This document shows positions 19,670 through 50,738 of a stretch of 64,000 nt of DNA, piece by piece. How positions within the stretch are numbered: position 1 is the stretch's first letter; every line of letters starts with the position of its first letter. The stretch spans positions 5,766,001 through 5,830,000 of the forward strand of contig OZ287759.1 in the NCBI GenBank assembly GCA_965649765.1. Direction: 5' to 3'. The stretch is from Bispira polyomma. Lineage: Eukaryota. The notes beneath the pieces are model-generated. The model was not told the origin of the DNA and searched no databases. It saw only the letters and a list, made by a program, of their open reading frames with translations. Position numbers and translations under genes: made by a program.

Positions 19670-19930
19670 TTTTATTCTCTAGGTATAAGCAGTTACAGAC
19701 ATACAAACTGATGATGCCTCTTGTATTCTGTTGTTATTAAAGTGATGCTGTTGTATTTGAAAAACAACTGTACACAGAAGATGTCATGATGAGAATATAT
19801 AATCCACACATCATCATCAAGCAAAGTATCTCAAACATGTGATGAAATTTAGTTGCGGCTTCAGCAGTATTCTTGATTCCACGGAATGTTGCGTTGGTAA
19901 TAAGTTCCTTAAAAGCAATAGCACATTTTT
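19670..19930 (-). pseudogene. Decayed DEG/ENaC N-terminal fragment (inverted paralog)
   Basis: AFKELITNATFRGIKNTAEAATKF…LMMMCGLYILIMTSSVYS aligns to SCKDFINHTTLHGIRNTAEATKP…LFLFGLYLSITITSIQS of the 447-aa ORF. Frameshift after TM1. Confidence 0.8.
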
Positions 19931-23224: not shown

Positions 23225-23834
23225 AGTCTAAAAGGTTGCAAAATGTTTCAAAAAAAGTATGTTATATTATTAATGTCACTATCTTAATAACACAACCTTT
23301 GTTAAATTGTCTGTATGATTTTAAGGTTGTAGGGCACGTGACTACCACTTTCTGATAGGGAAAAAAAAACTTCAGATTTTCACGTTTAACGGGATTTGTT
23401 ATAAAGGCTATCGTAATGTGTAACACTTCACTGCTTATTTTATGAACAATGATTTAAGTGTGCAATTCTTTAAAAAAAAATCTTAAAACTTTTCAAAAAC
23501 AGCATGGTATCACATGTTCACTTTACCGAAATTGATCTGCTGTGCTTGACCTAATCAGACATACATTTCAACTGTCATCGGGTTTATGACCAGTCAATGC
23601 TCAGACAGAATTGTATCAACAACAAAACATTACTACCAAAAATGTAGCAAATTAATGCAGAAAGATAAATAAGCATTACATCTAATTACTTTTCATTTCT
23701 TTTGCAAATTTGCTGGCGGTACTGTTGTCTTCTTATTCCATAACAGAAAGAAATAACTAAGTGTGAACACTGTGTGGCAAAAATGAAGTAAGTCTGCAAA
23801 TTTTCTATTGTGAATTGATAGGATAAAATATGCC

Positions 23835-24082
23835 ATGGCTTTCAAAGAATTTATTAATAACACAACATTTTGCGGAATCAAAGGTACTACAGTGCCGCCA
23901 CAAAATTCCAATGCATTTTTGAGATGCTTTGCTTGGTGTTGATGTGTGGATTATATATTCTCATCATGACATCTTCTTTGTGCAGTTGTTATTCAAGTTA
24001 CAACAGCATCACCTTTATAACAACAGAATACAAGGTGTATCATCAGTTTTATGTCTGTATCTGCTTACACCTAAAAAATTAA
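23835..24082 (+). pseudogene. Decayed DEG/ENaC N-terminal fragment (unit 1)
   Basis: MAFKEFINNTTFCGIKGT, a frameshift, then AATKFQCIFEMLCLVLMCGLYILIMTSSLCS…SITFITTEYKVYHQF. Aligns to residues 1-~72 of the 447-aa ORF and ends at a (TA)n tract. Confidence 0.8.
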
Positions 24083-24084
24083 AA

Positions 24085-24089
<5 letters not shown>

Positions 24090-24135
<46 letters not shown>

Positions 24136-24150
24136 CAAATATATATATCT
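24090..24150. repeat. (TA)n microsatellite (also ~37417 and ~50744)
   Basis: Direct read; 2 bp shorter in unit 3. Confidence 0.95.
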
Positions 24151-26383
24151 AGATGTCACAGTACTTCAGTATGGCCCTATCTAGATAGCCCAACCAAACT
24201 AACACAAATACGATACTTTGACCTATCTTATATTAATTCATATAATGATATATTTAAGACAAAACCAAACCTTTCTAAGACACTAGGAAGATGTGGGTTC
24301 CAGTGTAATACGATTTCAATCTTTTATTAACCTCCCTGAGGCTTTGGGTAGTATTTGCCATAAATAGACAACCATTTTAAGTGATGTATTAACTTCACTA
24401 AACAGTCACATTTGGACAATGGGGCAATGCAATCAAATTGCCAGTGCAAAAACTGTACCTTAGGGGATAAGTAAAAATAAATCTGTAACCTATGATGAGA
24501 CTATCTAAGAAAAGGGTTGAAAAATATTCAAAGTCAGACGTGTATCTAAGGTTAATTTGCGTGACCAATACAAGACGTTTTACAAGACACTCTTGCTTTT
24601 AATTATCAATTATATTATTACCTTTTTCTACAGCCCTGCAATTATGAGGTTAAAATATAATATGCGAAAGCCTTATTCCTGAGTTTAAAGTATCATTAAA
24701 TCATGATAAATACATTCAGGCTGTGCAGAGGTATAAAATACCATGGAAAAATATATTGCATCCAGTGATTAAATGATGCACTTAGGATTTGTATTAGTCA
24801 ACAACTCTGATACTAAGTTGAATGTTTAATGAGAAATTTGTGTAAATTTGGTGTGGATTTTAATACTGTTCCCTGTCTATTTTCAAGTGCATATTGTTAT
24901 GTAAGAAACCATATTCTTAACCAATTCTGTATGTCACTTTATGGTTCTGTATTATGAGATCTAATATCCCATTTTGTACATAAAATTTACACTAAATGGA
25001 GAATTGCTATACAGAAAATATGTAAGTTATCTTACCATACTAAATGTACTATGGGAATACTATAACTGGAGCTATCTGTAGATTTTTCATATCTTACCAA
25101 ATAAATTTGTATTGTCCAAATCTGTATTGTCCAAAATATGGTCATACTTGTAAAAATTTCAGAACGTCTATACTCTGATTTGACTTAAGGTCACAATATA
25201 TTGATCCAGTGGCATCTTTTATGTCTGATTATCATTTTAACAAGGGTATGTACCAAAACTATGGTGTAGGACCATCTCAGTCAGAAAATGAGCACCATAG
25301 AGGATGAAATATTAATAGTGGGTGAATAAATGCTTCAATACTAATAATAAAAGTTATCGCAAAAACACCCACATGGGAGAGATGTTATGGTCGTGGTTAG
25401 GCTCATTTTGATATGCTTCTCACATCAATTTGTGACCTTATATTCACTAGTAGGCAAAGGCATGTTCACATTTTACCCAAAGATGTTATCCCATCAATGA
25501 TCCCAACAGCATTAATCGGGGACGGGCCAGGGACTTTACAATCACTAGAACAACTCCCCAAATGTGAGTCTAACCATTGACCTTCTGATTATTATAATAA
25601 TAAAGTAATTGAATTAAAGCACTTTAATTTGTGACTTATTGGATTCAGTTAAACAAAGTAACTGTTTTGATATTGTCTAACGATGATCACATACCTTTGT
25701 TTTCAAGTAAGATAATACAGGATATTAGTACTGCTGTACTGATTTCTAATTCAAAGTTACAAGTCATACATACCATTTTATTGAACTACCTCTAAAATGG
25801 ACAATTTCAAAGCTTCGTGAGAACAATATTAGGGCCATATTATAATTTTAACTTGATCATGTGTTATTACCAATACACATTTACTGTGATGTCTACTGAG
25901 ATATTGCATAAGTTATCGGCATCGACCATGCAAAATTATAAGACAAATTTTACTTGCAAAATACTAAAACTATAATATTCATGCATTCTGTTTTCTAGTG
26001 AAACAGAATATTGTATGAGTAAATAATGAACACACAAAACATACCATTTACCCATTAGTTAATATCCGGTTTATGTATTGACAGACATTAGTAGAATAAA
26101 CATTCCAATGGAAAGCTTCTGTTTGATGTTAGCAGATATTTTCCCATAAATACGCCTGTAATGGTAGAATATAAACCCATACAGAAGGAAAACACACTGA
26201 AAAACAATGCATATATTCTAGGATATTGTATTTGGAGAGATCTATTATGTGTGAATTTATCATATGATTTCAATATAGGATTAAGTCAGATGAATACAAC
26301 TCAAGAAATTTAAAATAAAATGGATTTTGATATCTATGCTGACACTAAAATAAAAAACCAGTAATATTAACAAAACAAAAATC

Positions 26384-27727
26384 ATGTCTTGCAAGGATTT
26401 TATTAACCATACTACATTACATGGAATCAGAAATACAGCAGAAGCCACAAAACCATGCAGAGTTATTTGGGTTGTATGCATGCTGTTCTTGTTTGGACTG
26501 TATCTTAGCATCACTATCACGTCTATCCAGTCATACTTAAAGTATGAAAGTGTGACCAGTATATCCACCACTTACAAGGCATACCAGGAATTTCCAGGCG
26601 TCACAATTTGCAATGTTAATACGTTTCAAAAATCAGTAACAAGGAGTAAATATCCATCAGTTTGGGAATATTATGAAAAAGTTATGATGGGATCTCAAGG
26701 AACAGATTACAAGCTTCCTGATTTACTGCACAACATCACTTTTCTAGAGTATTACCAAAATGCTGCACAGACAGTTAAAGATGTATTTGTTAATTGTCTC
26801 AATAAACAGGCTTCCTTCAATTGTACACCATTCATTGATTCTCATTTTACCAATTATGGAATGTGTTATACATTTCACTCAAATACTTATGTCAAAGGCA
26901 ATGGTGCCATTAAGATATATAATTATGGTTTATCCAATTCTATTGCATTTGTACTCAATGCAGATCAAGAGCAATACTTTATTCCAAGAACCGATGCAGT
27001 GGGTTTCTTTGTATCAATCCACGATTCCTTTTACTACTCACAGATGGAAACTGATCTCATTCTGGCTTCTGTAGGTAAAGAAACCCACATTTCTCTCAAA
27101 AAGAATGTGATGCATAGATTGCCCAGACCATACTCTTCATTGGATTGTGTTGATACAAGTATCAAGGAAAACCTGGATTATTGTCAAACAACCTGCCTTT
27201 GGAAATGTTCAGAAAGAAAGATTTACAGGGATAGCTGTAACTGTACAATTTTTGGTTCTGATACTAAGAAGTGCTCCCTGTATGACCTTTATGGTTGTGC
27301 ATTTTTTGCAATGACAGAAACAAAGAGAAATATAAGTGATGTGGAAAGTTGTGGTTGTATGCCCCATTGTGATGAAACTACCTATTCCACAAAGGTGACA
27401 TCTGCTGAATTTCCCAATACACCTACAATGGAATACACATCTGTTGTTGGCCAATGGCCAAACAGAAATGAAAGTTACATCAAAGAGAATTATGCTAAAG
27501 TTGTCATCTACTTTGATACATTAGAAGAAACTGCTTACTACCAAAGGAAAGTGATATCTGAAAATCAGCTAGTTGCCGAGTTTGGGGGCTTGCTTGGGTT
27601 ATTTCTTGGTGCAAGTGTTGTGACACTTTTGGAATTAATAGAATTTGGACTTTTATCCTGTCTGACATCTGCAAAAGCAAAAGTGTGTAAGAGACAGGTG
27701 AAGGATGGTGGGCAGAAAACATATTGA
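26384..27727 (+). CDS. DEG/ENaC (amiloride-sensitive channel family) subunit, single-exon ORF, 447 aa, copy 1
   Basis: Pre-TM1 TTLHG gating motif, TM1 (RVIWVVCMLFLFGLYL), FPGVTICNVN, YGMCYTF, Cys-rich thumb (CQTTC…CNC…CGCMPHC), and TM2 with GAS filter (AEFGGLLGLFLGASVVTLLE). A at -3 of ATG; AATAAA at 27931. Confidence 0.95.
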   Translation: MSCKDFINHTTLHGIRNTAEATKPCRVIWVVCMLFLFGLYLSITITSIQSYLKYESVTSISTTYKAYQEFPGVTICNVNTFQKSVTRSKYPSVWEYYEKVMMGSQGTDYKLPDLLHNITFLEYYQNAAQTVKDVFVNCLNKQASFNCTPFIDSHFTNYGMCYTFHSNTYVKGNGAIKIYNYGLSNSIAFVLNADQEQYFIPRTDAVGFFVSIHDSFYYSQMETDLILASVGKETHISLKKNVMHRLPRPYSSLDCVDTSIKENLDYCQTTCLWKCSERKIYRDSCNCTIFGSDTKKCSLYDLYGCAFFAMTETKRNISDVESCGCMPHCDETTYSTKVTSAEFPNTPTMEYTSVVGQWPNRNESYIKENYAKVVIYFDTLEETAYYQRKVISENQLVAEFGGLLGLFLGASVVTLLELIEFGLLSCLTSAKAKVCKRQVKDGGQKTY

Positions 27728-28344
27728 TCACTTGTGAAAATTGTTTATACTTATAGATTGCACTAGTGATTCTGCATAAAATACTTCTGATTGATTAATC
27801 GAATAGTAAATGCTTGTGTGCACTTGTTTGAAATATTAATTGATGTTGTTTTAGATAGTTTTGTTTACAAACATTAAATTAATGTTTGTAGTATTTTAAA
27901 AAACACTGGTAAAGGCTATATTACATAAAAAATAAAAGGAATTTTGGAATAGTCAATTTTATAAATGGTTAAAATTTTACCTTTAAATTGACAGGATTTA
28001 TTTTTGATAATTTTTTTAGATGTATCTACATACTTGGAATATATCCTTGATATCTTCCTGATTAGTTTTAGTGTTGAGAGTCTTGATGGCAAATTTAAAA
28101 CACCAGTGTTTGTTTGCATCAGTGTGCGTTTCCCACAATTTCTTTAAAACTCAAAATTCTTAAAATCTACTGCAAATATACCTTTAATTATCTGTAGCTC
28201 TTAAGTACAACGGTAGGCCATTTACTTTAAAGCATGTAAAAATCATATAAAGGTCACCTTAACAAAATTACTAATGCTTGAATTTTTCCTATTTTTCCTG
28301 TACAAACTACTCTTTCTTTGAGAATAGTTTTTCTTCAAAAGTAG

Positions 28345-28520
28345 TGTTCTAGATAATTTGTTAATGTTAACGTGGATTATATACTCTAATCATGGTCATT
28401 TATGTGCAGTCTCTTTTTCGAGTATGTCAGCATCACTTTTATAACAACAATAAAATGTGTATCATTAGTTTATATATCAATGTTCACATTTTCACTATCT
28501 TCTATCTCATACCCTTAAAT
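28345..28520 (+). pseudogene. Highly decayed DEG/ENaC TM1-region relic (also ~41672-41847 and ~54989-55164)
   Basis: gtggattatatactctaatcatg…cagcatcacttttataacaacaataaaatgtgtatcattagttt matches gtggattatatattctcatcatg…cagcatcacctttataacaacagaatacaaggtgtatcatcagttt at ~23946-24050. Confidence 0.65.
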
Positions 28521-28983
28521 CTACAACATCTACACAAATGACCAACCAAGAAGTGAAGGTACCAGTCGTTTCATCTATGCAACCTTTGCATAACTGCCCA
28601 AGACAGTGACTTTTGTGTTGTTGAAGAAAGACTTTCAAATGCTTTCAACAAACCTTTATCTGGTATTCATAGCACTAAAACTTTTTCCGAAACAGAGATA
28701 CTTGACTATGACCACTTATCAAAACCGCTAAAGAATCTTGAGCCAGCAACTAGGGAATAGGACCAAGTGACAGAGGACCACCATCTGAAGTGTTTACCTG
28801 AACTACTAGGCACTAGCATATTATAGCCCGCTCTGGATTATGTAATCACCAGTGGTTCTCCAGCAGGGGTCTCACTCCGTGGGTTGCTTCTGGGTGTGTG
28901 CTGGTGACCTTGCATAATGTCTAACATGGACAGTAGGCCAGAGGCATTTAGGCCACCAAAGTTGGTCTGTAAAACGTTCAGTT

Positions 28984-29310
28984 AGCCTATGCTTCCTTTC
29001 GGCAAATTACGACATCGGCCGATCCGATCCAACATTGGGCAATGTTTTGCTTTGGATTTTGGTGGGACAAAAACACAGTAATCACAATAAAATAAGCTTT
29101 CTCGTGCCATTTTTAAAGTCAAAATCTGACGAATATTGAGTATATATAGGATGAAAACTATATCTATATCTTTGAGAATAGTGTATTTGTCCAGTTTTGA
29201 TTTAAAATCAGACAGTCCTCCTGATTTTTCCCTCCCTGACAGATAAAATATGTTGGCCAAACAGACGTCGGCTGATCTGATGCAAATCTGCTGAAAGGAA
29301 GCACTTGGTT
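28984..29310. mobile_element. MITE-like element with terminal inverted repeats (also ~42311-42637 and ~55628-55954)
   Basis: Left end agcctatgcttcctttcggcaaatt is an inverted repeat of right end aaatctgctgaaaggaagcacttggtt. Confidence 0.6.
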
Positions 29311-29734
29311 GTATTATGTAATGACGAAAAAAATCGGCTGAGAAAACCATGCTGAAAGGAAGTGTAGACTTGTGGTGGTGGTGACCAAACTGGCTGTATA
29401 ATCAATGGCTGTAGCAGCATGTGAGTTGTGGTCTGTGTTTGATACTGGCTACCTGTTATCTGTGTTTTCATAACATATCTACATAACTACAATATACATA
29501 ACTAAGTATATTAAATACATTTACTCAACTTTTACATAACTACAATATACAGCTAGTTACAGAACCACTAAATCGAATCATTATAGTAGTAACAAGTACC
29601 ATTAAACTGTAACACAAATAATAATAAAAATTCATAGAAAAGAGGTCACAGTGAATATAACAGTTAATACAAAAGCATAAAACAAAATCTTTAATGAAAT
29701 ATTCCAAAATCCTAATTTTTTACCATAATTCATG

Positions 29735-31145
29735 AGCAGGTGCAAGACAAATATGTAACAAGTGGATTGACAAATAAAAAAGGCGAACACAGTATCATTT
29801 ATATTGACTTTTTTACAGCCTATATTTAACATGCAAAACTTTTGCAGAATATTACTATTTTCTTGCTTTTTACCAATGTTTTTGTGTATTTATTGGTAAA
29901 TATATTGCCTGATAGAACCTATAACAACTGTGTGTGAGTTCAGTTTTGGGTTCTTACGAACAAACTTATCTACTAGACAGCTAACAAAAGTTTCTATTTA
30001 CCCAACACTTTCCCAACTAAGGTTTAACTCTTTCGACGGGCCGCTATGGCCTAGTGGTTAGCAAGCATTGCGCTTCACAATCACTGGTCTCTCACCTCTG
30101 GGCGGCGTGAGTTCGAATCCCGTCGATGCCTATGTGGGAAAGGTGGTAGTTCCTTACTGTGGGCCGCTGGTTTCAGTGCAGAACCTTGACTGACTGTATG
30201 CAGTGTTTCCTCCAGCGTTTCCAAATACCCGTCCCAATATAACCTACTAAAAGGTACTAGAGTGGACGTTAAATATCCAAATTCAAAAAAAATTCAAAAA
30301 CCTTATCTCGGAGACCAATTATCCAGGGGCCTGTACATCCAAGCACTTAAGCACTTAAGCCAGCGAACACACTAAGTCTTGTTTAAGCCTTAGTTGGGTA
30401 AGTGTTGGGTAAATAGGAACCTTCGTTAATTGTCAGTTACTTTTGTTCGTAAAACCCCTAAAATTGAACCACAACTTGAACCCTGTGTTTGGGTATCAGT
30501 TAGGCAACATATTCACCAATATTTCAATGAAAACAATAGTGAAAACTTCTAAAAGCAAAAAAATGGTAATTATGCATTGTATTTTAGCTTTTATATTTAA
30601 AAATAGCCTGTAAAAATCAATATAAATATTGTTGGTTCGCCACCTTATTTGCCAATGCACTCGTACATATTTGTCATGATATCTGTCCTAAGATTTGTTG
30701 GGAGATGTGGATGTTTATGTATAGTTTAAAGTTCTAGATACATGATACACATAACTTAGTGTTATCCTAGATGGATCAATTACTCTGTGCACGACATATA
30801 AAAGCTTAATGTTTGTTAAATTGACCATAATTTCTACATTTATATTCTAACCACATCATATGGTGTCATAGAACCATACTGGTTAGACCTTTGTTTGGTT
30901 AGGTTTCAGTTAGTTCACCTTTAACAAAGGTCTAACTAATGTGGTTGTATGGCATCATTTGATGTGGTTATAATATAAATGTAGAAAATATGCCGCTTTT
31001 ATTAATCCATCTAGTGCAACAATAAGTTAAGTGTATCATATATATAGAATTTTTAAATATACGTAAAACACAATGTACTCATGAACATCTCCCAACAAAT
31101 CCTATGGCATATACGCCGACATATATGTACGAGTGCATTGGCCAT
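29735..31145. repeat. Two overlapping long imperfect palindromes (also ~43062-44472 and ~56379-57789)
   Basis: First arm pair ~29735-30028 / ~30383-30688; second arm pair ~30651-30895 / ~30923-31143. Confidence 0.85.
30038..30300 (+). mobile_element. Full-length tRNA-derived SINE (unit 1)
   Basis: A box tggcctagtgg, B box gttcgaatccc, A-rich tail. Same family as 10465. Confidence 0.92.
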
Positions 31146-31564
31146 ATAAACACGTGAACCAGTGTTAGTTTTATGGATTTTCATCAAGATGTTGCATCTT
31201 AGATTACGCGACAGAGAAAATCCAATCGTGAGGACAGCACTTTCTACCATCTCTTTATATCATTTTTAATTCATTTTTCGTACTTAATATTGTTTGGTAC
31301 TAAGTGTGTGTAGAGATTTTACCGTTACTGCTCCCCTGGGAAAACTTATATGCCTAGGCTCCTGAAATTTACAGGAAATGTTATTTATTACAAAAGCTTG
31401 CCTGGGAGTAATTTTGGCCTTATTTTGACAAACAAGATTGCCACCACTGGCGTTTCTTTGAAACTAATCAGGCTCTTAACTGTGTCTGTTTCTTAGCTGT
31501 AGAAGGTTGAATCTCTTTACGGATGATATGTTTAACGGATATATATGTCCTTTATAAACATGCA

Positions 31565-31950
31565 TACATTTGACCTTGAATCTCCTCATTCAAGGTCATC
31601 CATGTGCATCCAAGTGACCGATTTTGGCCATACTTTCCCTGGTGCCTATACCTCGCTTAATATTGGTCCTACAGATTTGTGATCTTAAAGAAACCTATAC
31701 AAAATCATGGGCTGGGAATCTTTTCATGTAGTCGGATTTGACCTTGGGCAACTCGTTCAAGGTCAAATACGAATGGCCAAACTTAAAAATGCCTATATCT
31801 CGCTTAAAATTGTCCTACAGGTGTGGGTTCTCTAACCAACCTATAGGAAATCATAATCAGGGAATTTTTTGATGTGGTCCAATTTGACCTGGCCTCTCGA
31901 TCAAGGTCAAACAGGGATGGCCAAACTTAAAAGTGCCTATATCTTACTTA
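31565..31950. repeat. ~146-168-bp tandem repeat (about 2.5 units) with tttgacctt…aaggtcaaa hairpins (also in units 2 and 3)
   Basis: Units begin at ~31568, ~31736 and ~31882. They resemble core repeats of non-autonomous Helitron-like elements (inference). Confidence 0.7.
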
Positions 31951-32179
31951 TCCACTCTAGTACCTGTTTAGGTTATATTGGGACGGGTAGTTGGAAACGC
32001 TGGAGGAAACACTGCATACAGTTGATCAAGGTTCTACACTGAAACCAGCAGCCCACAGTAAGGAACTACCACCTTTCCCACATGGGCATTGACGGGAGTT
32101 GAACTCACGCCGCCCAGAGGTGAGAGACCAGTGATTGTGAAGCGCAATGCTTGCTAACCACTAGGCCACAGTGGTCCCC
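31951..32179 (-). mobile_element. SINE in reverse orientation, tail missing (unit 1)
   Basis: Reverse complement of the family consensus. Confidence 0.92.
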
Positions 32180-32829
32180 GACGAGTATGTGAGCACATTG
32201 CCTTTGATCTAAGTTTAACGTTCTATAGTAGTGCCTTCTCCCATAACATTTTGGAAGCTCGGCAGTCATTGAAATTATGCTTTTTATAACCTTTCAGGCT
32301 ATTTGCTGCTCAAAACAGTTTCCTGGAAAAGGCATACCTATGCTCAGACAAACGAGAGTTAATGTTCTGTGCAAATATATTGACATCTGATGCATAAATA
32401 TACAGGGATAGATAGAGACAAAAAAAAGGTAACGCCTGGATTAACTTTGGTTTACTAAATTTTATTTCTTTGCAATTAGGCCTGGAACATAGAGGTGGGT
32501 ACTCTGTATTGAAGCTTGTGATGCACATGCGTTAGGTTTTTACACACATCACTATCTCTTGTTTGCAAACAGAAACCTGAAGAATTAAGTTTAGCTATAA
32601 TAGGATAGTAAACATTTAATTTCCAAGTAAATATGTATTTAAACTTGTGTTAATAATTTCACTCAACAAAATGGAAATCATCACCCAAGAAATGCATTTA
32701 AGCTAATATGAGATGGGAGATAGTGACAATGTGAACACTGTTATTGGTCTTTGAACTGTGACAAAGAGCCAACTGTGAACACACAAGTTTGCCTAGTGGC
32801 TGGGATGACCACTGTAAACTTACAAAGAT

Positions 32830-32915
32830 TCTTGCCTTTGCTGGGATTAGAACCGGGGCTCTTTGGATCTTAAGATTAGTAGTCCAGTACACTAATATTT
32901 GAGCTAAAGTGGAAA
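32830..32915 (-). mobile_element. Degenerate tRNA-like head of an older SINE (also in units 2 and 3)
   Basis: Minus strand reads ttagctcaaat… (A-box-like) and ggttctaatccc (B-box-like). Confidence 0.45.
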
Positions 32916-33684
32916 ACCTAGAAGCTTGAGTGTTTATGTGTAAATATACACGGATATTACACCACTTGAAATGGCGGTACTCTGTCACTGAGTACTATCT
33001 CCAGTGGCAGATTAATAAAATCCCGACGACATAGTTAAATGATCATCCTCAAGCACACCTCCGTGCCCATATAGTGGCTGCCCATGATGAAGCGTATTTG
33101 AAATGACCCTGTGTTGTATAAGTGCACAATAACAAATGTCCTATTTCATTTCAAAAGCAAATTCCAGTGAACCTTTCCAAAACATTTTGCCAAATTAATT
33201 TCCACTCTTACAGTAGGGGCATTTTATTGGGACGTCCTCAGGTTTTCGGGAAAAAGAATTGCTGTTGTTTGTTTGTGGCCGATTCTGTTTTTAGTACTCT
33301 TATAAAGCACTCCGGTTTCCCAAGCAGAATGCACATATGTCACATGATAAAGTGAAAAGACAGTTTGTGGATAAAAAAATACAATTTGAGAAAGAACAAT
33401 GTAAAACATATATACAATTACATCTTGATCACGTAATCAATTTTAAGAATACATGTTTAATGATACATTTAATTAGTACCAAAGTATTCAATAATAACAT
33501 ATAACTCATTACCTGTAAATTTATTATTTGTATCTCTTAATAGGATACAGTCACTCAAGATCACCATAATTTATCAAATGATTTTCACTGTACAAGTTAC
33601 ATATTTTTTGATTAACTAATTGACAGAGGAAGTTGTAACTAACATTGTATCTATTAATTTGAGATGGAAACTATGAGACTGGCT

Positions 33685-34480
33685 GATACAAATATTCAAC
33701 TACTTGCAGACTGTCTGTCCGCTGTCCAGGCGTGGATGAACTACTCCAAATTAAAACCTAACCCTGACAAAACGGAATTCATCCTCATAGGAAACAAGAA
33801 AAACAGTGAACTCCTAACATCTTTGTTTCCCATCTCCCAGCTGGGAAAAGACATACTACCTTCCAAAAAAAATTTATCTGTGGCTAATGCCCTTGTGAGC
33901 AGCCGCCTCGACTACTGCAACTCTCTTCTGCACGGAGCAAAAAAGTCACACATTAAAGCTCCAGTCTTTTCCAAACTACCTATGCAGGGTTATTTTTCGT
34001 CTGTTTTGTCGCAAAGATGTCACTCCTTACCTCAAAAAAAATTCCACTGGCTACCTATTTCATTCTCGTACTCATTCTCGTTCAAGATTCATGTTACCAC
34101 TTTTAAGGCTGTAGTCACTCGACAGCCCCCTACCTTGCTTCCTTTTTCTCCATCAGTAACCGTAAGAGAGACAACAGACTCTCTGTCTCCTTGGTCAGAC
34201 CCATCAGAAAGGTGGGATCCAGAGCATTCTCCACTACAGCTCCATTGTTATGGAACAGTCTCCCAGTTGACCTCAGATTAGTTGACATACTTATTGGTTT
34301 TAGGAAAAAGCTTAAAATCTATATTTTTTAACCTTGCCTACCCACCTTAACTTTCCTCATACACGTTCCCACTTCCTTCCTTACGACTTTGCCCTGTCCA
34401 TGGACTTAATCATTCTGCTGTTGCGCTTTAGAATATGCCTAACATCAATAAAGCACGTCAAAAATTAATCATAATAATAA
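33685..34480 (+). mobile_element. Internally deleted 3' fragment of an L2/CR1-group LINE (unit 1)
   Basis: WMNYSKLKPNPDKTEFILIG, ALVSSRLDYCNSLL and HWLP motifs. The 3' UTR matches the LINE end at ~2415-2460. Confidence 0.88.
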
Positions 34481-34644
34481 TTACATTATTAACGCAGACA
34501 TAAAAAGTTGTGTGCAGCATTCTTTATATTTACATTAGTATCACAGGAACAATACAAAGATGGTGGGCACTTGTTTTAGTTTTCATAAATATATTATTGA
34601 ATTTTAAGCCATCTATAGCCTGTAATTTTGTATAGTGTAATAAC

Positions 34645-34975
34645 TGATATTCATCAGGATTAAATTATACATTGTAATCGGCACTAAATCTATCACATAC
34701 GTTAAGCATCATATGTAATGAAGCTAATGTGGGGCTTAAAAGAATGATGTCACCAGCATAGCTAAAGCTGCCCATATATTTAATCCCAATATGACATCCA
34801 CAACCAGAATCTCTCACCTGAATTAGTAATTACTGAATTAGCAATTGATCTATATATATACAATGAAAAATAGTGAGGAGAGCACACCACCTTGATGTAC
34901 ACCATTACTTAATGTGCATGCGTTAGACAGACTATTACCCCATTTAACATAAAGGGGTCGGTGTGTGTACATATA
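34645..34975 (-). mobile_element. RT fragment of a different non-LTR clade, RTE/RTEX-like (also ~47972-48302 and ~61289-61619)
   Basis: VKWGNSLS…NGVHQGGVLSSLFFIVYI followed by GCHIGIKYMGSFSYAGDIILLSPT (degenerate YADD). Confidence 0.75.
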
Positions 34976-37161
34976 AATAAATAAAGAAAGAAATAAAAAA
35001 TCCACTGAACTAAGTTCAAAACAACCAAATACAATGACGTCGCAACAATAACGTTGTACAAACATTTGTATTTGCCTCCTTATTACCCAGAACAATACAT
35101 ACTAGCACATTATACAACAGGAAAGTGAACACCATATGATTTACTTACAGATAATGGATGTTATAACACTGGGAAGTAGGACACCAATAAATGTACCATG
35201 CTCTCTGTGCCTTAGAATTCATATATACATATATATATATATCACTTTAACAAACATTTGATCAGGCTGATTTGGCAATCTATGGCCCAGCAATTACTGG
35301 TCTGTGTGTATTTCTACAGTCATTTGAACAACATAACTAATCACTTGACCTGTGATATTGTCGAATCATTTCAAATCCCATTGGATTCTGTTTGACTGGA
35401 ACACATGTTTTGAACAATCTACAAACAGAGCTATTATATACATCCTATACAACAGAGAATAAAAAATATAAAATGATTAGGGGAGTATAAATATTATTCC
35501 AATGGCCAAAGAGTATCAAAAGCTTGTGGGCTGTCTCTAAATGTAACATGACATTCTCACATGAATTATTCTGTTAAGTGGTGGTGTGAAAAAAGAAAAA
35601 GAAATTATTGTTTTTCTCCTGTATTTCACATAAAACTAAATATGCCATATTTTCATAAGCTCATATAGTTATTAGATATTACTAAAATTATATATATAAA
35701 TGTGTTTCTATGTTTATATGTACAAAAATTTGAGTTTGCCTTTAACTTTTCTTTACCTTTTAATAAGCCCTACATTTCTCACATTAGTCATAAAAGTTGC
35801 TTTAATGATATAGTAGTATTCAGCAAACCTTCAACATGTACTGAATATAATATCTAGGTATCATTCAGACGGATGGCCATCACAAACACACCCACAGACA
35901 TCTTTTAAGCGATCAGTGACAGTAGGTTGCATCTTCGTTTGTTTACATAAGGAGCGCTTCGGAAGTTTTCGTTGATATTCATGTGCATTAGTCGGGCCAT
36001 CACAAAAGTGATTTTAGTGGGGAAGGGTGTGGAGGGGTATACATCTTGATTTGTTTTGGATTGACTCTTGTCAGTACCAGGCTGTGTTGGCTTGATGTGG
36101 CTCGTTTGCATTAGTGTCAATTAGTAGCAGTTAGGGAACATTCGCTGATGTTAGTGATGTATTAGTGGGTGCTTGTTATTATCGTTCATGTCTTCGTTTA
36201 TTATTAGTGGCCGTCACAGTTTGCTTTCAAACTCGCCTCACGTTAGTGATATACGTGGTGTAAAAACAGTCCGTTCATGGTGTAAGCTCCCGCAACGAAG
36301 GGTCACAGATGCACATCTAAATGAGACCAGGCCTTAATGCATACAACCAAAAAATGAAAATCAAATGAAAAATAAAGTTAAAACATATTAAATCCTCAAA
36401 AATGCGCCCTTAGTAAATACTGTGTTTTCAAGTGATATTTTACCTGAGAAAAAAATAACAAAAAAAATCCATTAAAATAGGCTCATTATTCTAGTTTAAA
36501 AATATGAATACAAATTTTCACTGGAAATGAATTAATTTTCACTCTATATTCAAGCTAGTTTTTAACCTTTTTTTTGTCCATCTATGCCCTTTGCCCATTT
36601 ATAGAATTGTATTGTTTTTCTACAATTGTTCGTCCAATTGCTAATGAAATATGTTTAAATAAAAAAGCAAACTCAAATAAATTCCCAGTGAAAATTTCCA
36701 ATACATACTCTATTTCTAAGATTTGTTATAAAGGCTATCGTAATGTGTAACACTTCACTGCTTATTTTATGAACAATGATTTAAGTGTGCAATTCTTTAA
36801 AAAAAAATCTTAAAACTTTTCAAAAACAGCATGGTATCACATGTTCACTTTACCGAAATTGATCTGCTGTGCTTGACCTAATCAGACATACATTTCAACT
36901 GTCATCGGGTTTATGACCAGTCAATGCTCAGACAGAATTGTATCAACAACAAAACATTACTACCAAAAATGTAGCAAATTAATGCAGAAAGATAAATAAG
37001 CATTACATCTAATTACTTTTCATTTCTTTTGCAAATTTGCTGGCGGTACTGTTGTCTTCTTATTCCATAACAGAAAGAAATAACTAAGTGTGAACACTGT
37101 GTGGCAAAAATGAAGTAAGTCTGCAAATTTTCTATTGTGAATTGATAGGATAAAATATGCC

Positions 37162-37409
37162 ATGGCTTTCAAAGAATTTATTAATAACACAACATTTTGC
37201 GGAATCAAAGGTACTACAGTGCCGCCACAAAATTCCAATGCATTTTTGAGATGCTTTGCTTGGTGTTGATGTGTGGATTATATATTCTCATCATGACATC
37301 TTCTTTGTGCAGTTGTTATTCAAGTTACAACAGCATCACCTTTATAACAACAGAATACAAGGTGTATCATCAGTTTTATGTCTGTATCTGCTTACACCTA
37401 AAAAATTAA
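37162..37409 (+). pseudogene. Decayed DEG/ENaC N-terminal fragment (unit 2)
   Basis: Copy of 23835-24082. Confidence 0.8.
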
Positions 37410-37411
37410 AA

Positions 37412-37462
<51 letters not shown>

Positions 37463-39710
37463 CAAATATATATATCTAGATGTCACAGTACTTCAGTATG
37501 GCCCTATCTAGATAGCCCAACCAAACTAACACAAATACGATACTTTGACCTATCTTATATTAATTCATATAATGATATATTTAAGACAAAACCAAACCTT
37601 TCTAAGACACTAGGAAGATGTGGGTTCCAGTGTAATACGATTTCAATCTTTTATTAACCTCCCTGAGGCTTTGGGTAGTATTTGCCATAAATAGACAACC
37701 ATTTTAAGTGATGTATTAACTTCACTAAACAGTCACATTTGGACAATGGGGCAATGCAATCAAATTGCCAGTGCAAAAACTGTACCTTAGGGGATAAGTA
37801 AAAATAAATCTGTAACCTATGATGAGACTATCTAAGAAAAGGGTTGAAAAATATTCAAAGTCAGACGTGTATCTAAGGTTAATTTGCGTGACCAATACAA
37901 GACGTTTTACAAGACACTCTTGCTTTTAATTATCAATTATATTATTACCTTTTTCTACAGCCCTGCAATTATGAGGTTAAAATATAATATGCGAAAGCCT
38001 TATTCCTGAGTTTAAAGTATCATTAAATCATGATAAATACATTCAGGCTGTGCAGAGGTATAAAATACCATGGAAAAATATATTGCATCCAGTGATTAAA
38101 TGATGCACTTAGGATTTGTATTAGTCAACAACTCTGATACTAAGTTGAATGTTTAATGAGAAATTTGTGTAAATTTGGTGTGGATTTTAATACTGTTCCC
38201 TGTCTATTTTCAAGTGCATATTGTTATGTAAGAAACCATATTCTTAACCAATTCTGTATGTCACTTTATGGTTCTGTATTATGAGATCTAATATCCCATT
38301 TTGTACATAAAATTTACACTAAATGGAGAATTGCTATACAGAAAATATGTAAGTTATCTTACCATACTAAATGTACTATGGGAATACTATAACTGGAGCT
38401 ATCTGTAGATTTTTCATATCTTACCAAATAAATTTGTATTGTCCAAATCTGTATTGTCCAAAATATGGTCATACTTGTAAAAATTTCAGAACGTCTATAC
38501 TCTGATTTGACTTAAGGTCACAATATATTGATCCAGTGGCATCTTTTATGTCTGATTATCATTTTAACAAGGGTATGTACCAAAACTATGGTGTAGGACC
38601 ATCTCAGTCAGAAAATGAGCACCATAGAGGATGAAATATTAATAGTGGGTGAATAAATGCTTCAATACTAATAATAAAAGTTATCGCAAAAACACCCACA
38701 TGGGAGAGATGTTATGGTCGTGGTTAGGCTCATTTTGATATGCTTCTCACATCAATTTGTGACCTTATATTCACTAGTAGGCAAAGGCATGTTCACATTT
38801 TACCCAAAGATGTTATCCCATCAATGATCCCAACAGCATTAATCGGGGACGGGCCAGGGACTTTACAATCACTAGAACAACTCCCCAAATGTGAGTCTAA
38901 CCATTGACCTTCTGATTATTATAATAATAAAGTAATTGAATTAAAGCACTTTAATTTGTGACTTATTGGATTCAGTTAAACAAAGTAACTGTTTTGATAT
39001 TGTCTAACGATGATCACATACCTTTGTTTTCAAGTAAGATAATACAGGATATTAGTACTGCTGTACTGATTTCTAATTCAAAGTTACAAGTCATACATAC
39101 CATTTTATTGAACTACCTCTAAAATGGACAATTTCAAAGCTTCGTGAGAACAATATTAGGGCCATATTATAATTTTAACTTGATCATGTGTTATTACCAA
39201 TACACATTTACTGTGATGTCTACTGAGATATTGCATAAGTTATCGGCATCGACCATGCAAAATTATAAGACAAATTTTACTTGCAAAATACTAAAACTAT
39301 AATATTCATGCATTCTGTTTTCTAGTGAAACAGAATATTGTATGAGTAAATAATGAACACACAAAACATACCATTTACCCATTAGTTAATATCCGGTTTA
39401 TGTATTGACAGACATTAGTAGAATAAACATTCCAATGGAAAGCTTCTGTTTGATGTTAGCAGATATTTTCCCATAAATACGCCTGTAATGGTAGAATATA
39501 AACCCATACAGAAGGAAAACACACTGAAAAACAATGCATATATTCTAGGATATTGTATTTGGAGAGATCTATTATGTGTGAATTTATCATATGATTTCAA
39601 TATAGGATTAAGTCAGATGAATACAACTCAAGAAATTTAAAATAAAATGGATTTTGATATCTATGCTGACACTAAAATAAAAAACCAGTAATATTAACAA
39701 AACAAAAATC

Positions 39711-41054
39711 ATGTCTTGCAAGGATTTTATTAACCATACTACATTACATGGAATCAGAAATACAGCAGAAGCCACAAAACCATGCAGAGTTATTTGGGTT
39801 GTATGCATGCTGTTCTTGTTTGGACTGTATCTTAGCATCACTATCACGTCTATCCAGTCATACTTAAAGTATGAAAGTGTGACCAGTATATCCACCACTT
39901 ACAAGGCATACCAGGAATTTCCAGGCGTCACAATTTGCAATGTTAATACGTTTCAAAAATCAGTAACAAGGAGTAAATATCCATCAGTTTGGGAATATTA
40001 TGAAAAAGTTATGATGGGATCTCAAGGAACAGATTACAAGCTTCCTGATTTACTGCACAACATCACTTTTCTAGAGTATTACCAAAATGCTGCACAGACA
40101 GTTAAAGATGTATTTGTTAATTGTCTCAATAAACAGGCTTCCTTCAATTGTACACCATTCATTGATTCTCATTTTACCAATTATGGAATGTGTTATACAT
40201 TTCACTCAAATACTTATGTCAAAGGCAATGGTGCCATTAAGATATATAATTATGGTTTATCCAATTCTATTGCATTTGTACTCAATGCAGATCAAGAGCA
40301 ATACTTTATTCCAAGAACCGATGCAGTGGGTTTCTTTGTATCAATCCACGATTCCTTTTACTACTCACAGATGGAAACTGATCTCATTCTGGCTTCTGTA
40401 GGTAAAGAAACCCACATTTCTCTCAAAAAGAATGTGATGCATAGATTGCCCAGACCATACTCTTCATTGGATTGTGTTGATACAAGTATCAAGGAAAACC
40501 TGGATTATTGTCAAACAACCTGCCTTTGGAAATGTTCAGAAAGAAAGATTTACAGGGATAGCTGTAACTGTACAATTTTTGGTTCTGATACTAAGAAGTG
40601 CTCCCTGTATGACCTTTATGGTTGTGCATTTTTTGCAATGACAGAAACAAAGAGAAATATAAGTGATGTGGAAAGTTGTGGTTGTATGCCCCATTGTGAT
40701 GAAACTACCTATTCCACAAAGGTGACATCTGCTGAATTTCCCAATACACCTACAATGGAATACACATCTGTTGTTGGCCAATGGCCAAACAGAAATGAAA
40801 GTTACATCAAAGAGAATTATGCTAAAGTTGTCATCTACTTTGATACATTAGAAGAAACTGCTTACTACCAAAGGAAAGTGATATCTGAAAATCAGCTAGT
40901 TGCCGAGTTTGGGGGCTTGCTTGGGTTATTTCTTGGTGCAAGTGTTGTGACACTTTTGGAATTAATAGAATTTGGACTTTTATCCTGTCTGACATCTGCA
41001 AAAGCAAAAGTGTGTAAGAGACAGGTGAAGGATGGTGGGCAGAAAACATATTGA
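39711..41054 (+). CDS. DEG/ENaC subunit, copy 2 (identical protein)
   Basis: Identical translation to copy 1. Confidence 0.95.
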   Translation: MSCKDFINHTTLHGIRNTAEATKPCRVIWVVCMLFLFGLYLSITITSIQSYLKYESVTSISTTYKAYQEFPGVTICNVNTFQKSVTRSKYPSVWEYYEKVMMGSQGTDYKLPDLLHNITFLEYYQNAAQTVKDVFVNCLNKQASFNCTPFIDSHFTNYGMCYTFHSNTYVKGNGAIKIYNYGLSNSIAFVLNADQEQYFIPRTDAVGFFVSIHDSFYYSQMETDLILASVGKETHISLKKNVMHRLPRPYSSLDCVDTSIKENLDYCQTTCLWKCSERKIYRDSCNCTIFGSDTKKCSLYDLYGCAFFAMTETKRNISDVESCGCMPHCDETTYSTKVTSAEFPNTPTMEYTSVVGQWPNRNESYIKENYAKVVIYFDTLEETAYYQRKVISENQLVAEFGGLLGLFLGASVVTLLELIEFGLLSCLTSAKAKVCKRQVKDGGQKTY

Positions 41055-43364
41055 TCACTTGTGAAAATTGTTTATACTTATAGATTGCACTAGTGATTCT
41101 GCATAAAATACTTCTGATTGATTAATCGAATAGTAAATGCTTGTGTGCACTTGTTTGAAATATTAATTGATGTTGTTTTAGATAGTTTTGTTTACAAACA
41201 TTAAATTAATGTTTGTAGTATTTTAAAAAACACTGGTAAAGGCTATATTACATAAAAAATAAAAGGAATTTTGGAATAGTCAATTTTATAAATGGTTAAA
41301 ATTTTACCTTTAAATTGACAGGATTTATTTTTGATAATTTTTTTAGATGTATCTACATACTTGGAATATATCCTTGATATCTTCCTGATTAGTTTTAGTG
41401 TTGAGAGTCTTGATGGCAAATTTAAAACACCAGTGTTTGTTTGCATCAGTGTGCGTTTCCCACAATTTCTTTAAAACTCAAAATTCTTAAAATCTACTGC
41501 AAATATACCTTTAATTATCTGTAGCTCTTAAGTACAACGGTAGGCCATTTACTTTAAAGCATGTAAAAATCATATAAAGGTCACCTTAACAAAATTACTA
41601 ATGCTTGAATTTTTCCTATTTTTCCTGTACAAACTACTCTTTCTTTGAGAATAGTTTTTCTTCAAAAGTAGTGTTCTAGATAATTTGTTAATGTTAACGT
41701 GGATTATATACTCTAATCATGGTCATTTATGTGCAGTCTCTTTTTCGAGTATGTCAGCATCACTTTTATAACAACAATAAAATGTGTATCATTAGTTTAT
41801 ATATCAATGTTCACATTTTCACTATCTTCTATCTCATACCCTTAAATCTACAACATCTACACAAATGACCAACCAAGAAGTGAAGGTACCAGTCGTTTCA
41901 TCTATGCAACCTTTGCATAACTGCCCAAGACAGTGACTTTTGTGTTGTTGAAGAAAGACTTTCAAATGCTTTCAACAAACCTTTATCTGGTATTCATAGC
42001 ACTAAAACTTTTTCCGAAACAGAGATACTTGACTATGACCACTTATCAAAACCGCTAAAGAATCTTGAGCCAGCAACTAGGGAATAGGACCAAGTGACAG
42101 AGGACCACCATCTGAAGTGTTTACCTGAACTACTAGGCACTAGCATATTATAGCCCGCTCTGGATTATGTAATCACCAGTGGTTCTCCAGCAGGGGTCTC
42201 ACTCCGTGGGTTGCTTCTGGGTGTGTGCTGGTGACCTTGCATAATGTCTAACATGGACAGTAGGCCAGAGGCATTTAGGCCACCAAAGTTGGTCTGTAAA
42301 ACGTTCAGTTAGCCTATGCTTCCTTTCGGCAAATTACGACATCGGCCGATCCGATCCAACATTGGGCAATGTTTTGCTTTGGATTTTGGTGGGACAAAAA
42401 CACAGTAATCACAATAAAATAAGCTTTCTCGTGCCATTTTTAAAGTCAAAATCTGACGAATATTGAGTATATATAGGATGAAAACTATATCTATATCTTT
42501 GAGAATAGTGTATTTGTCCAGTTTTGATTTAAAATCAGACAGTCCTCCTGATTTTTCCCTCCCTGACAGATAAAATATGTTGGCCAAACAGACGTCGGCT
42601 GATCTGATGCAAATCTGCTGAAAGGAAGCACTTGGTTGTATTATGTAATGACGAAAAAAATCGGCTGAGAAAACCATGCTGAAAGGAAGTGTAGACTTGT
42701 GGTGGTGGTGACCAGACTGGCTGTATAATCAATGGCTGTAGCAGCATGTGAGTTGTGGTCTGTGTTTGATACTGGCTACCTGTTATCTGTGTTTTCATAA
42801 CATATCTACATAACTACAATATACATAACTAAGTATATTAAATACATTTACTCAACTTTTACATAACTACAATATACAGCTAGTTACAGAACCACTAAAT
42901 CGAATCATTATAGTAGTAACAAGTACCATTAAACTGTAACACAAATAATAATAAAAATTCATAGAAAAGAGGTCACAGTGAATATAACAGTTAATACAAA
43001 AGCATAAAACAAAATCTTTAATGAAATATTCCAAAATCCTAATTTTTTACCATAATTCATGAGCAGGTGCAAGACAAATATGTAACAAGTGGATTGACAA
43101 ATAAAAAAGGCGAACACAGTATCATTTATATTGACTTTTTTACAGCCTATATTTAACATGCAAAACTTTTGCAGAATATTACTATTTTCTTGCTTTTTAC
43201 CAATGTTTTTGTGTATTTATTGGTAAATATATTGCCTGATAGAACCTATAACAACTGTGTGTGAGTTCAGTTTTGGGTTCTTACGAACAAACTTATCTAC
43301 TAGACAGCTAACAAAAGTTTCTATTTACCCAACACTTTCCCAACTAAGGTTTAACTCTTTCGAC

Positions 43365-43627
43365 GGGCCGCTATGGCCTAGTGGTTAGCAAGCATTGCGC
43401 TTCACAATCACTGGTCTCTCACCTCTGGGCGGCGTGAGTTCGAATCCCGTCGATGCCTATGTGGGAAAGGTGGTAGTTCCTTACTGTGGGCCGCTGGTTT
43501 CAGTGCAGAACCTTGACTGACTGTATGCAGTGTTTCCTCCAGCGTTTCCAAATACCCGTCCCAATATAACCTACTAAAAGGTACTAGAGTGGACGTTAAA
43601 TATCCAAATTCAAAAAAAATTCAAAAA
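43365..43627 (+). mobile_element. SINE (unit 2)
   Basis: Copy of 30038-30300. Confidence 0.92.
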
Positions 43628-45277
43628 CCTTATCTCGGAGACCAATTATCCAGGGGCCTGTACATCCAAGCACTTAAGCACTTAAGCCAGCGAACACACT
43701 AAGTCTTGTTTAAGCCTTAGTTGGGTAAGTGTTGGGTAAATAGGAACCTTCGTTAATTGTCAGTTACTTTTGTTCGTAAAACCCCTAAAATTGAACCACA
43801 ACTTGAACCCTGTGTTTGGGTATCAGTTAGGCAACATATTCACCAATATTTCAATGAAAACAATAGTGAAAACTTCTAAAAGCAAAAAAATGGTAATTAT
43901 GCATTGTATTTTAGCTTTTATATTTAAAAATAGCCTGTAAAAATCAATATAAATATTGTTGGTTCGCCACCTTATTTGCCAATGCACTCGTACATATTTG
44001 TCATGATATCTGTCCTAAGATTTGTTGGGAGATGTGGATGTTTATGTATAGTTTAAAGTTCTAGATACATGATACACATAACTTAGTGTTATCCTAGATG
44101 GATCAATTACTCTGTGCACGACATATAAAAGCTTAATGTTTGTTAAATTGACCATAATTTCTACATTTATATTCTAACCACATCATATGGTGTCATAGAA
44201 CCATACTGGTTAGACCTTTGTTTGGTTAGGTTTCAGTTAGTTCACCTTTAACAAAGGTCTAACTAATGTGGTTGTATGGCATCATTTGATGTGGTTATAA
44301 TATAAATGTAGAAAATATGCCGCTTTTATTAATCCATCTAGTGCAACAATAAGTTAAGTGTATCATATATATAGAATTTTTAAATATACGTAAAACACAA
44401 TGTACTCATGAACATCTCCCAACAAATCCTATGGCATATACGCCGACATATATGTACGAGTGCATTGGCCATATAAACACGTGAACCAGTGTTAGTTTTA
44501 TGGATTTTCATCAAGATGTTGCATCTTAGATTACGCGACAGAGAAAATCCAATCGTGAGGACAGCACTTTCTACCATCTCTTTATATCATTTTTAATTCA
44601 TTTTTCGTACTTAATATTGTTTGGTACTAAGTGTGTGTAGAGATTTTACCGTTACTGCTCCCCTGGGAAAACTTATATGCCTAGGCTCCTGAAATTTACA
44701 GGAAATGTTATTTATTACAAAAGCTTGCCTGGGAGTAATTTTGGCCTTATTTTGACAAACAAGATTGCCACCACTGGCGTTTCTTTGAAACTAATCAGGC
44801 TCTTAACTGTGTCTGTTTCTTAGCTGTAGAAGGTTGAATCTCTTTACGGATGATATGTTTAACGGATATATATGTCCTTTATAAACATGCATACATTTGA
44901 CCTTGAATCTCCTCATTCAAGGTCATCCATGTGCATCCAAGTGACCGATTTTGGCCATACTTTCCCTGGTGCCTATACCTCGCTTAATATTGGTCCTACA
45001 GATTTGTGATCTTAAAGAAACCTATACAAAATCATGGGCTGGGAATCTTTTCATGTAGTCGGATTTGACCTTGGGCAACTCGTTCAAGGTCAAATACGAA
45101 TGGCCAAACTTAAAAATGCCTATATCTCGCTTAAAATTGTCCTACAGGTGTGGGTTCTCTAACCAACCTATAGGAAATCATAATCAGGGAATTTTTTGAT
45201 GTGGTCCAATTTGACCTGGCCTCTCGATCAAGGTCAAACAGGGATGGCCAAACTTAAAAGTGCCTATATCTTACTTA

Positions 45278-50736: not shown

Positions 50737-50738
50737 AA

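What the first reader, a model, noticed from the sequence alone, without database searches (positions are those of the whole stretch)
26384..27727. Compact, intronless, non-ASIC-like DEG/ENaC subunit with unknown gating stimulus
Seen: the whole channel is one 1344-bp ORF with only 12 residues before the HG motif and a short C-tail. Post-TM1 reads YLKYESVT, where ASIC1a has YHHVT, whose His is needed for proton gating. TM2 reads VAEFGGLLGLFLGAS versus ASIC LGDIGGQMGLFIGAS, so the degenerin site is Ala, the gate Asp is replaced by Glu, and GAS is intact. Most characterised DEG/ENaC genes are multi-exon. Inference: a retrogene-derived, lineage-specific subfamily gated by something other than protons (peptide, chemical or constitutive).
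Basis: partly seen in the sequence, partly recalled or inferred. Interest (0 to 1): 0.7.

Follow-up and report, generated by a model that had tools for sequence, protein, structure and literature searches.

The report
Sevenfold-amplified intronless DEG/ENaC channel gene
This sodium-channel-family gene without coding introns sits in seven identical side-by-side copies and belongs to a large, unnamed family expansion in what is likely a marine worm; it likely serves sensory or salt-handling roles, a pattern already known from mites and leeches.

Summary
It missed the context. The gene is copy 1 of a 7-unit, 13.3-kb head-to-tail array with identical proteins, and sequencing-contig depth supports several real copies. 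It belongs to a well-supported clade (99/98) outside ASIC, a BASIC-like group and FaNaC. I modelled 38 genes of that clade in this genome, and 15 have no coding intron. Its nearest paralogues share about 1.5 kb of collinear 5' flank, so it spread by DNA duplication. Intron loss is ancient and no close intron-bearing parent was found. dN/dS is 0.31 against the nearest paralogue. The ASIC proton sensors are absent, but several proton-activated non-ASIC channels lack them too (PMC10507113). The Ala and Glu pore residues are common or tolerated. Gating therefore stays open, and expression is untested. Verdict: an uncharacterised member of a known kind, a birth-and-death intronless ENaC expansion as in spider mites.

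The parts
26384..27727 (+). DEG/ENaC subunit ORF, copy 1 (447 aa, single coding exon)
39711..41054 (+). ORF copy 2, identical to copy 1
53028..54371 (+). ORF copy 3, identical to copy 1
23393..36719 (+). tandem unit 1 of 7 (13,327 bp); left edge of the array
36720..50046 (+). tandem unit 2 (identical to unit 5 outside the window)
50047..63363 (+). tandem unit 3 (13,317 bp; identical to unit 6)
63364..64000 (+). start of unit 4; the array continues to G000:C12:5882662
24866..26383 (+). 5' flank with collinear blocks (70-82% identity) shared with paralogues L008/L009, the mark of a DNA-level duplication
26420..26425 (+). HG motif codons (residues 13-14)
27575..27616 (+). TM2 from the degenerin site A398 and gate E399 to the GAS belt (409-411)
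27931..27936 (+). AATAAA, candidate polyadenylation signal in a 3' flank not shared with L008/L009
   Evidence: function inferred
23835..24049 (+). decayed 5' fragment of a paralogous channel gene, carried in every unit (140/205 identical to the ORF)
   Evidence: score 107 vs shuffle maximum 51
19708..19915 (-). decayed 5' fragment of a paralogous channel gene outside the array (132/197 identical)
   Evidence: score 88 vs shuffle maximum 49
28345..28478 (+). third decayed fragment; matches the 23835 fragment but not significantly the ORF itself
   Evidence: score 125 to the fragment; 36 to the ORF vs shuffle maximum 57

Best explanation
This is an intact single-coding-exon DEG/ENaC subunit gene, assembled as seven identical tandem copies, from a large intron-poor clade outside the ASICs, and it likely forms a trimeric sodium-selective channel acting as a sensory (most likely chemosensory) receptor subunit. 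Shown: the fold and pore motifs (HG, GAS, E18', 14 extracellular cysteines shared with the nearest paralogue), loss of ASIC-type proton sensors, purifying selection, clade membership, spread by DNA duplication, and neighbouring pseudogenes. Inferred: intron loss happened once or a few times deep in the clade; the 13.3-kb unit arose by one tandem duplication at a 2-bp microhomology and grew by unequal crossing-over, most recently by copying a block of three units; the copy number is a by-product of birth-and-death turnover rather than selected dosage. Predicted mechanism: the channel is closed at rest, opened or modulated by an external chemical acting on the divergent finger/thumb region, passes Na+, is blocked by amiloride, and may need a paralogous partner subunit.
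For: Fold: Pfam; model pLDDT 79.8 matching ASIC1, BASIC and FaNaC structures at TM 0.61-0.68. Array: 7 hits at 100% protein identity; units differ by 0-16 substitutions, u2=u5 and u3=u6; an exact 41,457-bp repeat at period 39,971; GA microhomology at the ends; contig depth unit/left flank 7.8, 5.4 and 4.4 in three runs. Clade: 41 of 70 rows form one group at 99/98 support, separate from the ASIC group (100/99) and the FaNaC-like group; of 38 genome models, 15 have 0, 11 have 1 and 12 have 2 coding introns, against 6-10 in eight outgroup genes. Selection: dS 0.253, dN 0.078 against L008. Turnover: broken paralogues L009/L016, L017, L028, L029 and three fragments in the window. Four close relatives from another assembly share one longest-contig length, which suggests a parallel cluster. 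Precedent: 106 lineage-specific spider-mite ENaCs, 92.5% intronless, clustered with pseudogenes and proposed as chemoreceptors (PMC5203786 passages).
Against: No expression or physiology data. The chemosensory role rests on analogy of gene-family dynamics, and it is unproven even in the mite. No domain shows dN/dS above 1 (0.14-0.66), so there is no sign of diversifying selection against L008. The exact three-unit repeat could be assembly doubling, and contig depth is a crude guide (unit/right-flank ratios range from 6.3 to 14.8). Related clade A channels are leak channels blocked by protons or Ca2+, or are proton-activated without ASIC residues (PMC6827283 abstract; PMC10507113). Leech DEG/ENaCs are enriched in mechanosensory neurons (PMC7992859 passages). 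The reference set lacked HyNaC, NeNaC, TadNaC, PPK and vertebrate BASIC/ENaC sequences.
Confidence: 0.55

Rival explanations
1. It is an epithelial Na+ leak channel, open at rest and blocked by Ca2+ or protons like BASIC, TadNaC6 and ACD-1, and the seven copies raise dosage for salt or pH balance.
For: Similarity to solved BASIC (124 bits) equals that to ASIC1 (125 bits). Clade A holds several such leak channels (PMC6827283 abstract; PMC10507113 section 6). All seven ORFs are intact and identical. E393 and E399 near the outer pore are Gly and Asp in L008.
Against: It does not group with the BASIC-like reference. Intact copies are expected from the youth of the array alone (0-16 differences per 13.3 kb). 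Many 25-35% divergent paralogues and pseudogenes fit a receptor repertoire better than a housekeeping channel (inference).
Confidence: 0.22
2. It is proton-activated through non-ASIC residues, as happened independently in TadNaC2, NeNaC2 and PPK1.
For: Published cases lack H73 and K211. The protein has extracellular histidines at 116, 154, 165, 213, 235, 244 and 328. None of the genome genes placed in my trees fell in the ASIC clade, and an Owenia ASIC-like query found at best 41% identity, on one short exon, so acid sensing may fall to other subunits.
Against: The equivalents of H74, D79, E80, K212, E220, D346, D350, D408 and E417 are all non-acidic or changed, and the acidic loop is about 6 residues shorter (read). 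The genome search scored only 87 of 216 candidates, so an ASIC may have been missed.
Confidence: 0.13
3. The gene is a recent retrocopy of an intron-bearing parent.
For: Single coding exon; outgroup genes have 6-10 introns; the 3' flank changes one base after the stop codon.
Against: Collinear 5' flank shared with L008/L009; all nearest relatives (85%, 49%, 47%, 28-35%) are also single-exon; no A-run longer than 6 downstream. An ancient retroposition at the base of the clade is not excluded.
Confidence: 0.04
4. The array is partly an assembly artefact: four real units, with one three-unit block traversed twice.
For: A 41,457-bp stretch is repeated with no difference. Depth ratios of 4.4-5.4 in runs X2 and X3 could fit fewer units.
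Against: Run X1 gives 6.3-7.8. In X2/X3 the right flank has about half the depth of the left, which implies roughly 9-11 copies over two haplotypes, with a synonymous variant at 26545 in about a quarter of the depth. A contig that starts at the unit's first base with 43 extra leading bases has depth 325 against 53-96 for the flank. This rival changes the count, not the nature of the gene.
Confidence: 0.2

Closest known systems
Tetranychus urticae lineage-specific ENaC expansion (PMC5203786; passages read)
   Same: Intronless lineage-specific clade beside intron-rich ancestral genes; clusters, pseudogenes and transposon insertions; proposed chemoreceptors.
   Different: Different phylum, presumably an independent origin (not tested). 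Mite genes are far more divergent (29% lack a detectable PF00858). Here many members keep 1-2 introns, and a 7-copy array of identical proteins is present.
ASIC1 and Group A/B ASICs (PDB 6ave, 9e4a; PMC9949801 passages)
   Same: Best-scoring solved relatives (125 bits, TM about 0.67); similar domain layout, HG, GAS, L7' and E18'.
   Different: Separate clade; lacks H73, D78, K211, E416 and the acidic pocket; shorter finger and N-terminus; no coding introns.
BASIC/ASIC5, TadNaC6 and other clade A leak channels
   Same: Clade A-type affinity (BASIC 124 bits, against ENaC 59-70 and FaNaC 42-56); no ASIC proton sensors.
   Different: Does not group with the amphioxus BASIC-like reference; no functional data; TadNaC sequences were not in my tree.
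FaNaC/WaNaC peptide-gated channels (PMC9234716 passages; PDB 8on7, 7yvb)
   Same: Spiralian DEG/ENaCs. This genome's FaNaC-like genes are also single-exon (L053-L055).
   Different: Other major clade; much longer finger. L055 scores 600 bits to Malacoceros FaNaC1, whereas this protein scores 42.
Leech (Helobdella) ENaC expansion, about 65 genes (PMC4085046, PMC7992859; passages read)
   Same: Large annelid DEG/ENaC repertoire with suggested sensory roles.
   Different: Relationship to this clade untested: no named leech sequence was identified among my hits.

Membership tests
DEG/ENaC superfamily | PF00858 domain with two TM helices around a Cys-rich extracellular loop | tested here: met
   15 extracellular Cys, 11 invariant in 21 sequences
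DEG/ENaC superfamily | HG motif, G-x-S belt, E18' | tested here: met
   H13-G14, G409-A410-S411, E417
DEG/ENaC superfamily | ASIC-like fold | tested here: met
   Foldseek E 5e-32, probability 1.0, TM 0.66
DEG/ENaC superfamily | trimeric, Na+-selective, amiloride-sensitive conduction | not testable with these tools
ASIC | falls in the ASIC Group A/B clade | tested here: not met
   the ASIC group of 7 rows (100/99) excludes it
ASIC | H73, D78, K211, E416 conserved | tested here: not met
   S56, S61, N180, T383 at the aligned positions; feature list from PMC9949801
ASIC | proton activation | not testable with these tools
   residue loss does not exclude it (PMC10507113)
FaNaC/WaNaC | falls in the clade B FaNaC branch | tested here: not met
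   the branch was represented by this genome's own FaNaC-like genes
BASIC | groups with BASIC | tested here: inconclusive
   separate from amphioxus BASIC-like P0088, but no vertebrate BASIC or TadNaC was in the tree
HyNaC / NeNaC / PPK | clade membership | not tested
   no named reference sequences retrieved; PPK structures score 31-50 bits only
Retrogene (recent) | no coding introns | tested here: met
Retrogene (recent) | close intron-bearing parent | tested here: not met
   nearest relatives are all single-exon; searches scored 94 of 203 and 93 of 535 candidates
Retrogene (recent) | no shared flanks; poly-A remnant | tested here: not met
   5' flank shared over about 1.5 kb; longest downstream A-run is 6
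Birth-and-death chemoreceptor-like ENaC expansion | lineage-restricted clade, clusters, pseudogenes, few introns | tested here: met
Birth-and-death chemoreceptor-like ENaC expansion | expression in sensory cells | not testable with these tools
   needs RNA data or in situ hybridisation

The most novel reading that the evidence does not exclude
An undescribed annelid chemoreceptor family of about 40 intron-poor DEG/ENaC channels, gated by a ligand class not yet known for the superfamily, in which this subunit is undergoing selected, still-polymorphic dosage amplification. The clade-private intron positions would also make it a clean case of recent intron gain in a retroposed founder.
Probability: 0.2. 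Interest if true: 0.6.

Novelty: new member of a known kind. Interest (0 to 1): 0.3.

Why it matters
DEG/ENaC gating stimuli have been re-invented many times, and most spiralian members are orphans. This clade gives a compact set of single-exon channels that can be cloned from genomic DNA for deorphanisation, including an 85%-identical pair that differs at the gate (Asp/Glu). It is also a further case of an intron-poor ENaC expansion that resembles chemoreceptor families. A specialist would find it useful rather than surprising: expansions, intron loss and tandem copy-number changes are all in print for other animals.

Tried and rejected
Expression: the one run search listed three holders and no RNA holder, which is no evidence either way. 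The ESM Atlas gave no answer in five tries. Naming the clade: 20 of 20 looked-up clade proteins were unnamed ENA or Logan entries; 10 of 10 outside picks were named. Host identity: COX1 had no match above 76%, so only a loose lineage call is made. A second gene driving the amplification: 43 of the 48 frames of at least 70 aa in 15001-36719 were scanned (the five on or antisense to the channel ORF were left out); only RVT_1 fragments and one sub-threshold CG-1 hit were found, all outside the unit; a multi-exon gene with short exons could be missed. A displaced original 3' flank: only L008 and L009 carry it. Positive selection: no domain above 1; dS to L010 is saturated, and the L011 comparison failed on a script error and was not repeated. 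The sigma-70 promoter scan is meaningless for an animal and was discarded. A trimer prediction was not run. The C2_12.35 and C8_19.01 gene models were unreliable and were left out of the trees; 19 near-duplicate or partial genome models were dropped from the 103- and 70-row trees. The '_i0' labels on L057, L061-L063 and L066-L068 mark partial frames, and these were not counted as single-exon. No description of this clade or array appeared in ten literature searches, and the Lindaspio genome paper has no ENaC mention. Published trees in the supplements of PMC10507113, PMC9822975, PMC9234716 and PMC4085046 were not opened and may contain members from other annelids. Earlier findings by sequence and by words: none.

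Full report
Observation. Window 26384-27727 (+) translates to 447 aa without a break. It matches Pfam ASC across the whole model. Its best solved relatives are ASIC1 (125 bits) and BASIC (124), then ENaC (59-70), FaNaC (42-56) and PPK (31-50). An AlphaFold2 model (pLDDT 79.8) matches ASIC1 at TM about 0.66. The quoted motifs are correct. An in-frame stop 11 codons upstream and a shared Met position in close relatives support the short N-terminus. UTR introns could not be tested.

The array. The ORF occurs three times in the window with no nucleotide difference and seven times on contig C12 at 100% protein identity. The unit is 13.3 kb, starts at window 23393 and ends at C12:5882662; the only homology across its ends is GA. 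Units differ by 0-16 substitutions; u2 equals u5 and u3 equals u6, giving an exact 41,457-bp repeat at period 39,971. That is either a very recent unequal crossover or assembly doubling. Logan contigs of three runs (two samples, one study, possibly the source of the assembly) give unit/left-flank depth ratios of 7.8, 5.4 and 4.4 and unit/right-flank ratios of 6.3, 14.8 and 7.2. The tool warns that such depth is not a copy number, so I take it as support for several real copies, not for exactly seven. A synonymous T>C at 26545 appears at about a quarter of the depth in two runs of one sample and in none of the assembled copies, a hint of a second haplotype. The channel is the only intact gene I found in the unit.

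The family. Genome searches found many paralogues (94 of 203 and 93 of 535 candidates scored, so counts are lower bounds). Spliced alignment gave 38 models in the gene's clade, counting the array once: 15 with no coding intron (one with a premature stop), 11 with one and 12 with two; two of the one-intron models lack their first exon. Eight other genes have 6-10 introns; four of them share positions 26/2, 82/2, 137/2, 182/1 and 311/1, and three of those four also 242/0 (P0001 numbering). In a 70-row IQ-TREE tree the clade has 99/98 support. It is sister to Lottia and Crassostrea proteins plus one multi-intron gene (100/99), and separate from ASICs (100/99), a BASIC-like group and the FaNaC-like genes. 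All 20 clade proteins looked up are unnamed. Eleven further full-length single-frame genes, including FaNaC-like ones, lie outside the clade, so lack of introns is ordinary here.

Origin. The nearest paralogues lie 5.5 Mb away on the opposite strand: L008 (85%), the frameshifted L009, L010 (49%) and L011 (47%). The window copy shares collinear upstream blocks with L008/L009 over about 1.5 kb, so it spread by DNA duplication. The shared sequence ends one base after the stop codon, while L008 and L009 share about 500 bp beyond it; the window copy therefore has a new 3' flank. Three decayed 5' fragments lie nearby. Intron presence changes at least 6 times over 43 genome genes on the tree. Positions 142/0, 188/1, 265/0 and 337/0 are private to sub-branches, which suggests gains. 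Position 182/1 matches the ancestral Gly intron and needs 3 changes; 53/2 and 61/0 each occur in more than one branch. A retroposed founder with regains and stepwise loss both remain possible; a recent retrocopy does not.

Function. dN/dS against L008 is 0.31 over 446 codons, so the protein has been conserved. The pore keeps HG, G3', L7', GAS and E18'; E18' is reported as a main Na/K determinant (PMC8536179 passages). The Asp at the gate forms a Ca2+ site in ASIC and HyNaC (PMC3457691 passages). In lamprey ASIC1, D433E resembles the parent channel with partial desensitisation, and G432A increases current (PMC3047608 passages). Ala and Glu occur at these sites in 46 and 10 of 197 aligned sequences, and within the clade the gate is Asp 19, Asn 14, Glu 2, other 3 of 38. 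The ASIC sensors of the wrist, palm and acidic pocket are absent, but so they are in several proton-activated non-ASIC channels (PMC10507113 passages and section 6). I commit to a ligand-modulated sensory Na+ channel subunit as most likely, by analogy with the mite expansion (PMC5203786 passages) and the leech repertoire (PMC4085046, PMC7992859 passages). Leak-channel and non-ASIC proton-gating rivals stay open.

Host. The genome is 1.035 Gb in 75 contigs, and its mitochondrial genes read under table 5. COX1 is at most 76% identical to anything, with annelids on top. L055 scores 600 bits to Malacoceros FaNaC1 against 173 to Aplysia FaNaC. An annelid is likely; this is inferred.

Papers seen. 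Passages: PMC10507113 (plus section 6), PMC3457691, PMC8536179, PMC3047608, PMC4085046, PMC9234716, PMC9949801, PMC5203786, bioRxiv 10.1101/261990, PMC10148893, PMC7992859. First part of the text: PMC9822975. Abstract and outline: PMC6827283. Term search with no hits: PMC11730519. No supplements were opened. Transposon labels given without a call are from memory.

Verdict. A real, conserved, uncharacterised DEG/ENaC in a fresh tandem array and a large intron-poor clade. It is a new member of a known kind; interest 0.3.

Noticed in passing
L064 (C11:42.77 Mb), L065 (C6:26.43 Mb) and C14:21.29-21.31 Mb: Two single-frame clade B channels of about 900 aa with a long finger insertion; L064 is sister (100/100) to a 10-intron gene. 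A better retrocopy-and-parent candidate than the window gene.
   Followed up: partly
L053, L054, L055 (C13, C6, C7): Single-exon FaNaC/WaNaC-like genes; L055 scores 600 bits to Malacoceros FaNaC1.
   Followed up: partly
L066-L068 (C10:57.70 Mb, C2:0.11-0.28 Mb, C13:29.93 Mb): Near-identical partial FaNaC-like copies, several close to contig ends and several with stops, suggesting segmental or subtelomeric duplication.
   Followed up: no
window 27728 onward: Homology with L008/L009 stops one base after the stop codon; the 3' flank is new and no displaced original was found.
   Followed up: yes
window 30038-30266 and 31951-32178: 230-bp inverted repeats (93%) about 2.1 kb apart, enclosing a roughly 147-bp tandem repeat; probably a non-autonomous DNA transposon in each unit (label from memory).
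   Followed up: no
window 20799-22468 (-) and 33664-34281 (+): Decayed non-LTR retroelement fragments; RVT_1 hits at 21476-21968 and very high contig depth.
   Followed up: partly
window 17044-17478 (+): 128-aa ORF recalling the end of a Harbinger-type transposase (from memory); no Pfam hit.
   Followed up: partly
window 29388: The only assembled unit with A here is unit 1; all three runs show G at full depth, so it may be an assembly error or a rare copy.
   Followed up: no
P0001 residue 267: An extra extracellular Cys (Ser in L008) gives an odd count of 15.
   Followed up: no
L008 (C12:11.34 Mb): A premature TAA trims the last ten codons after TM2; the gene is otherwise intact.
   Followed up: partly
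L123-L124 (C75): 15.5-kb mitochondrial contig with genes on both strands and a divergent COX1.
   Followed up: partly
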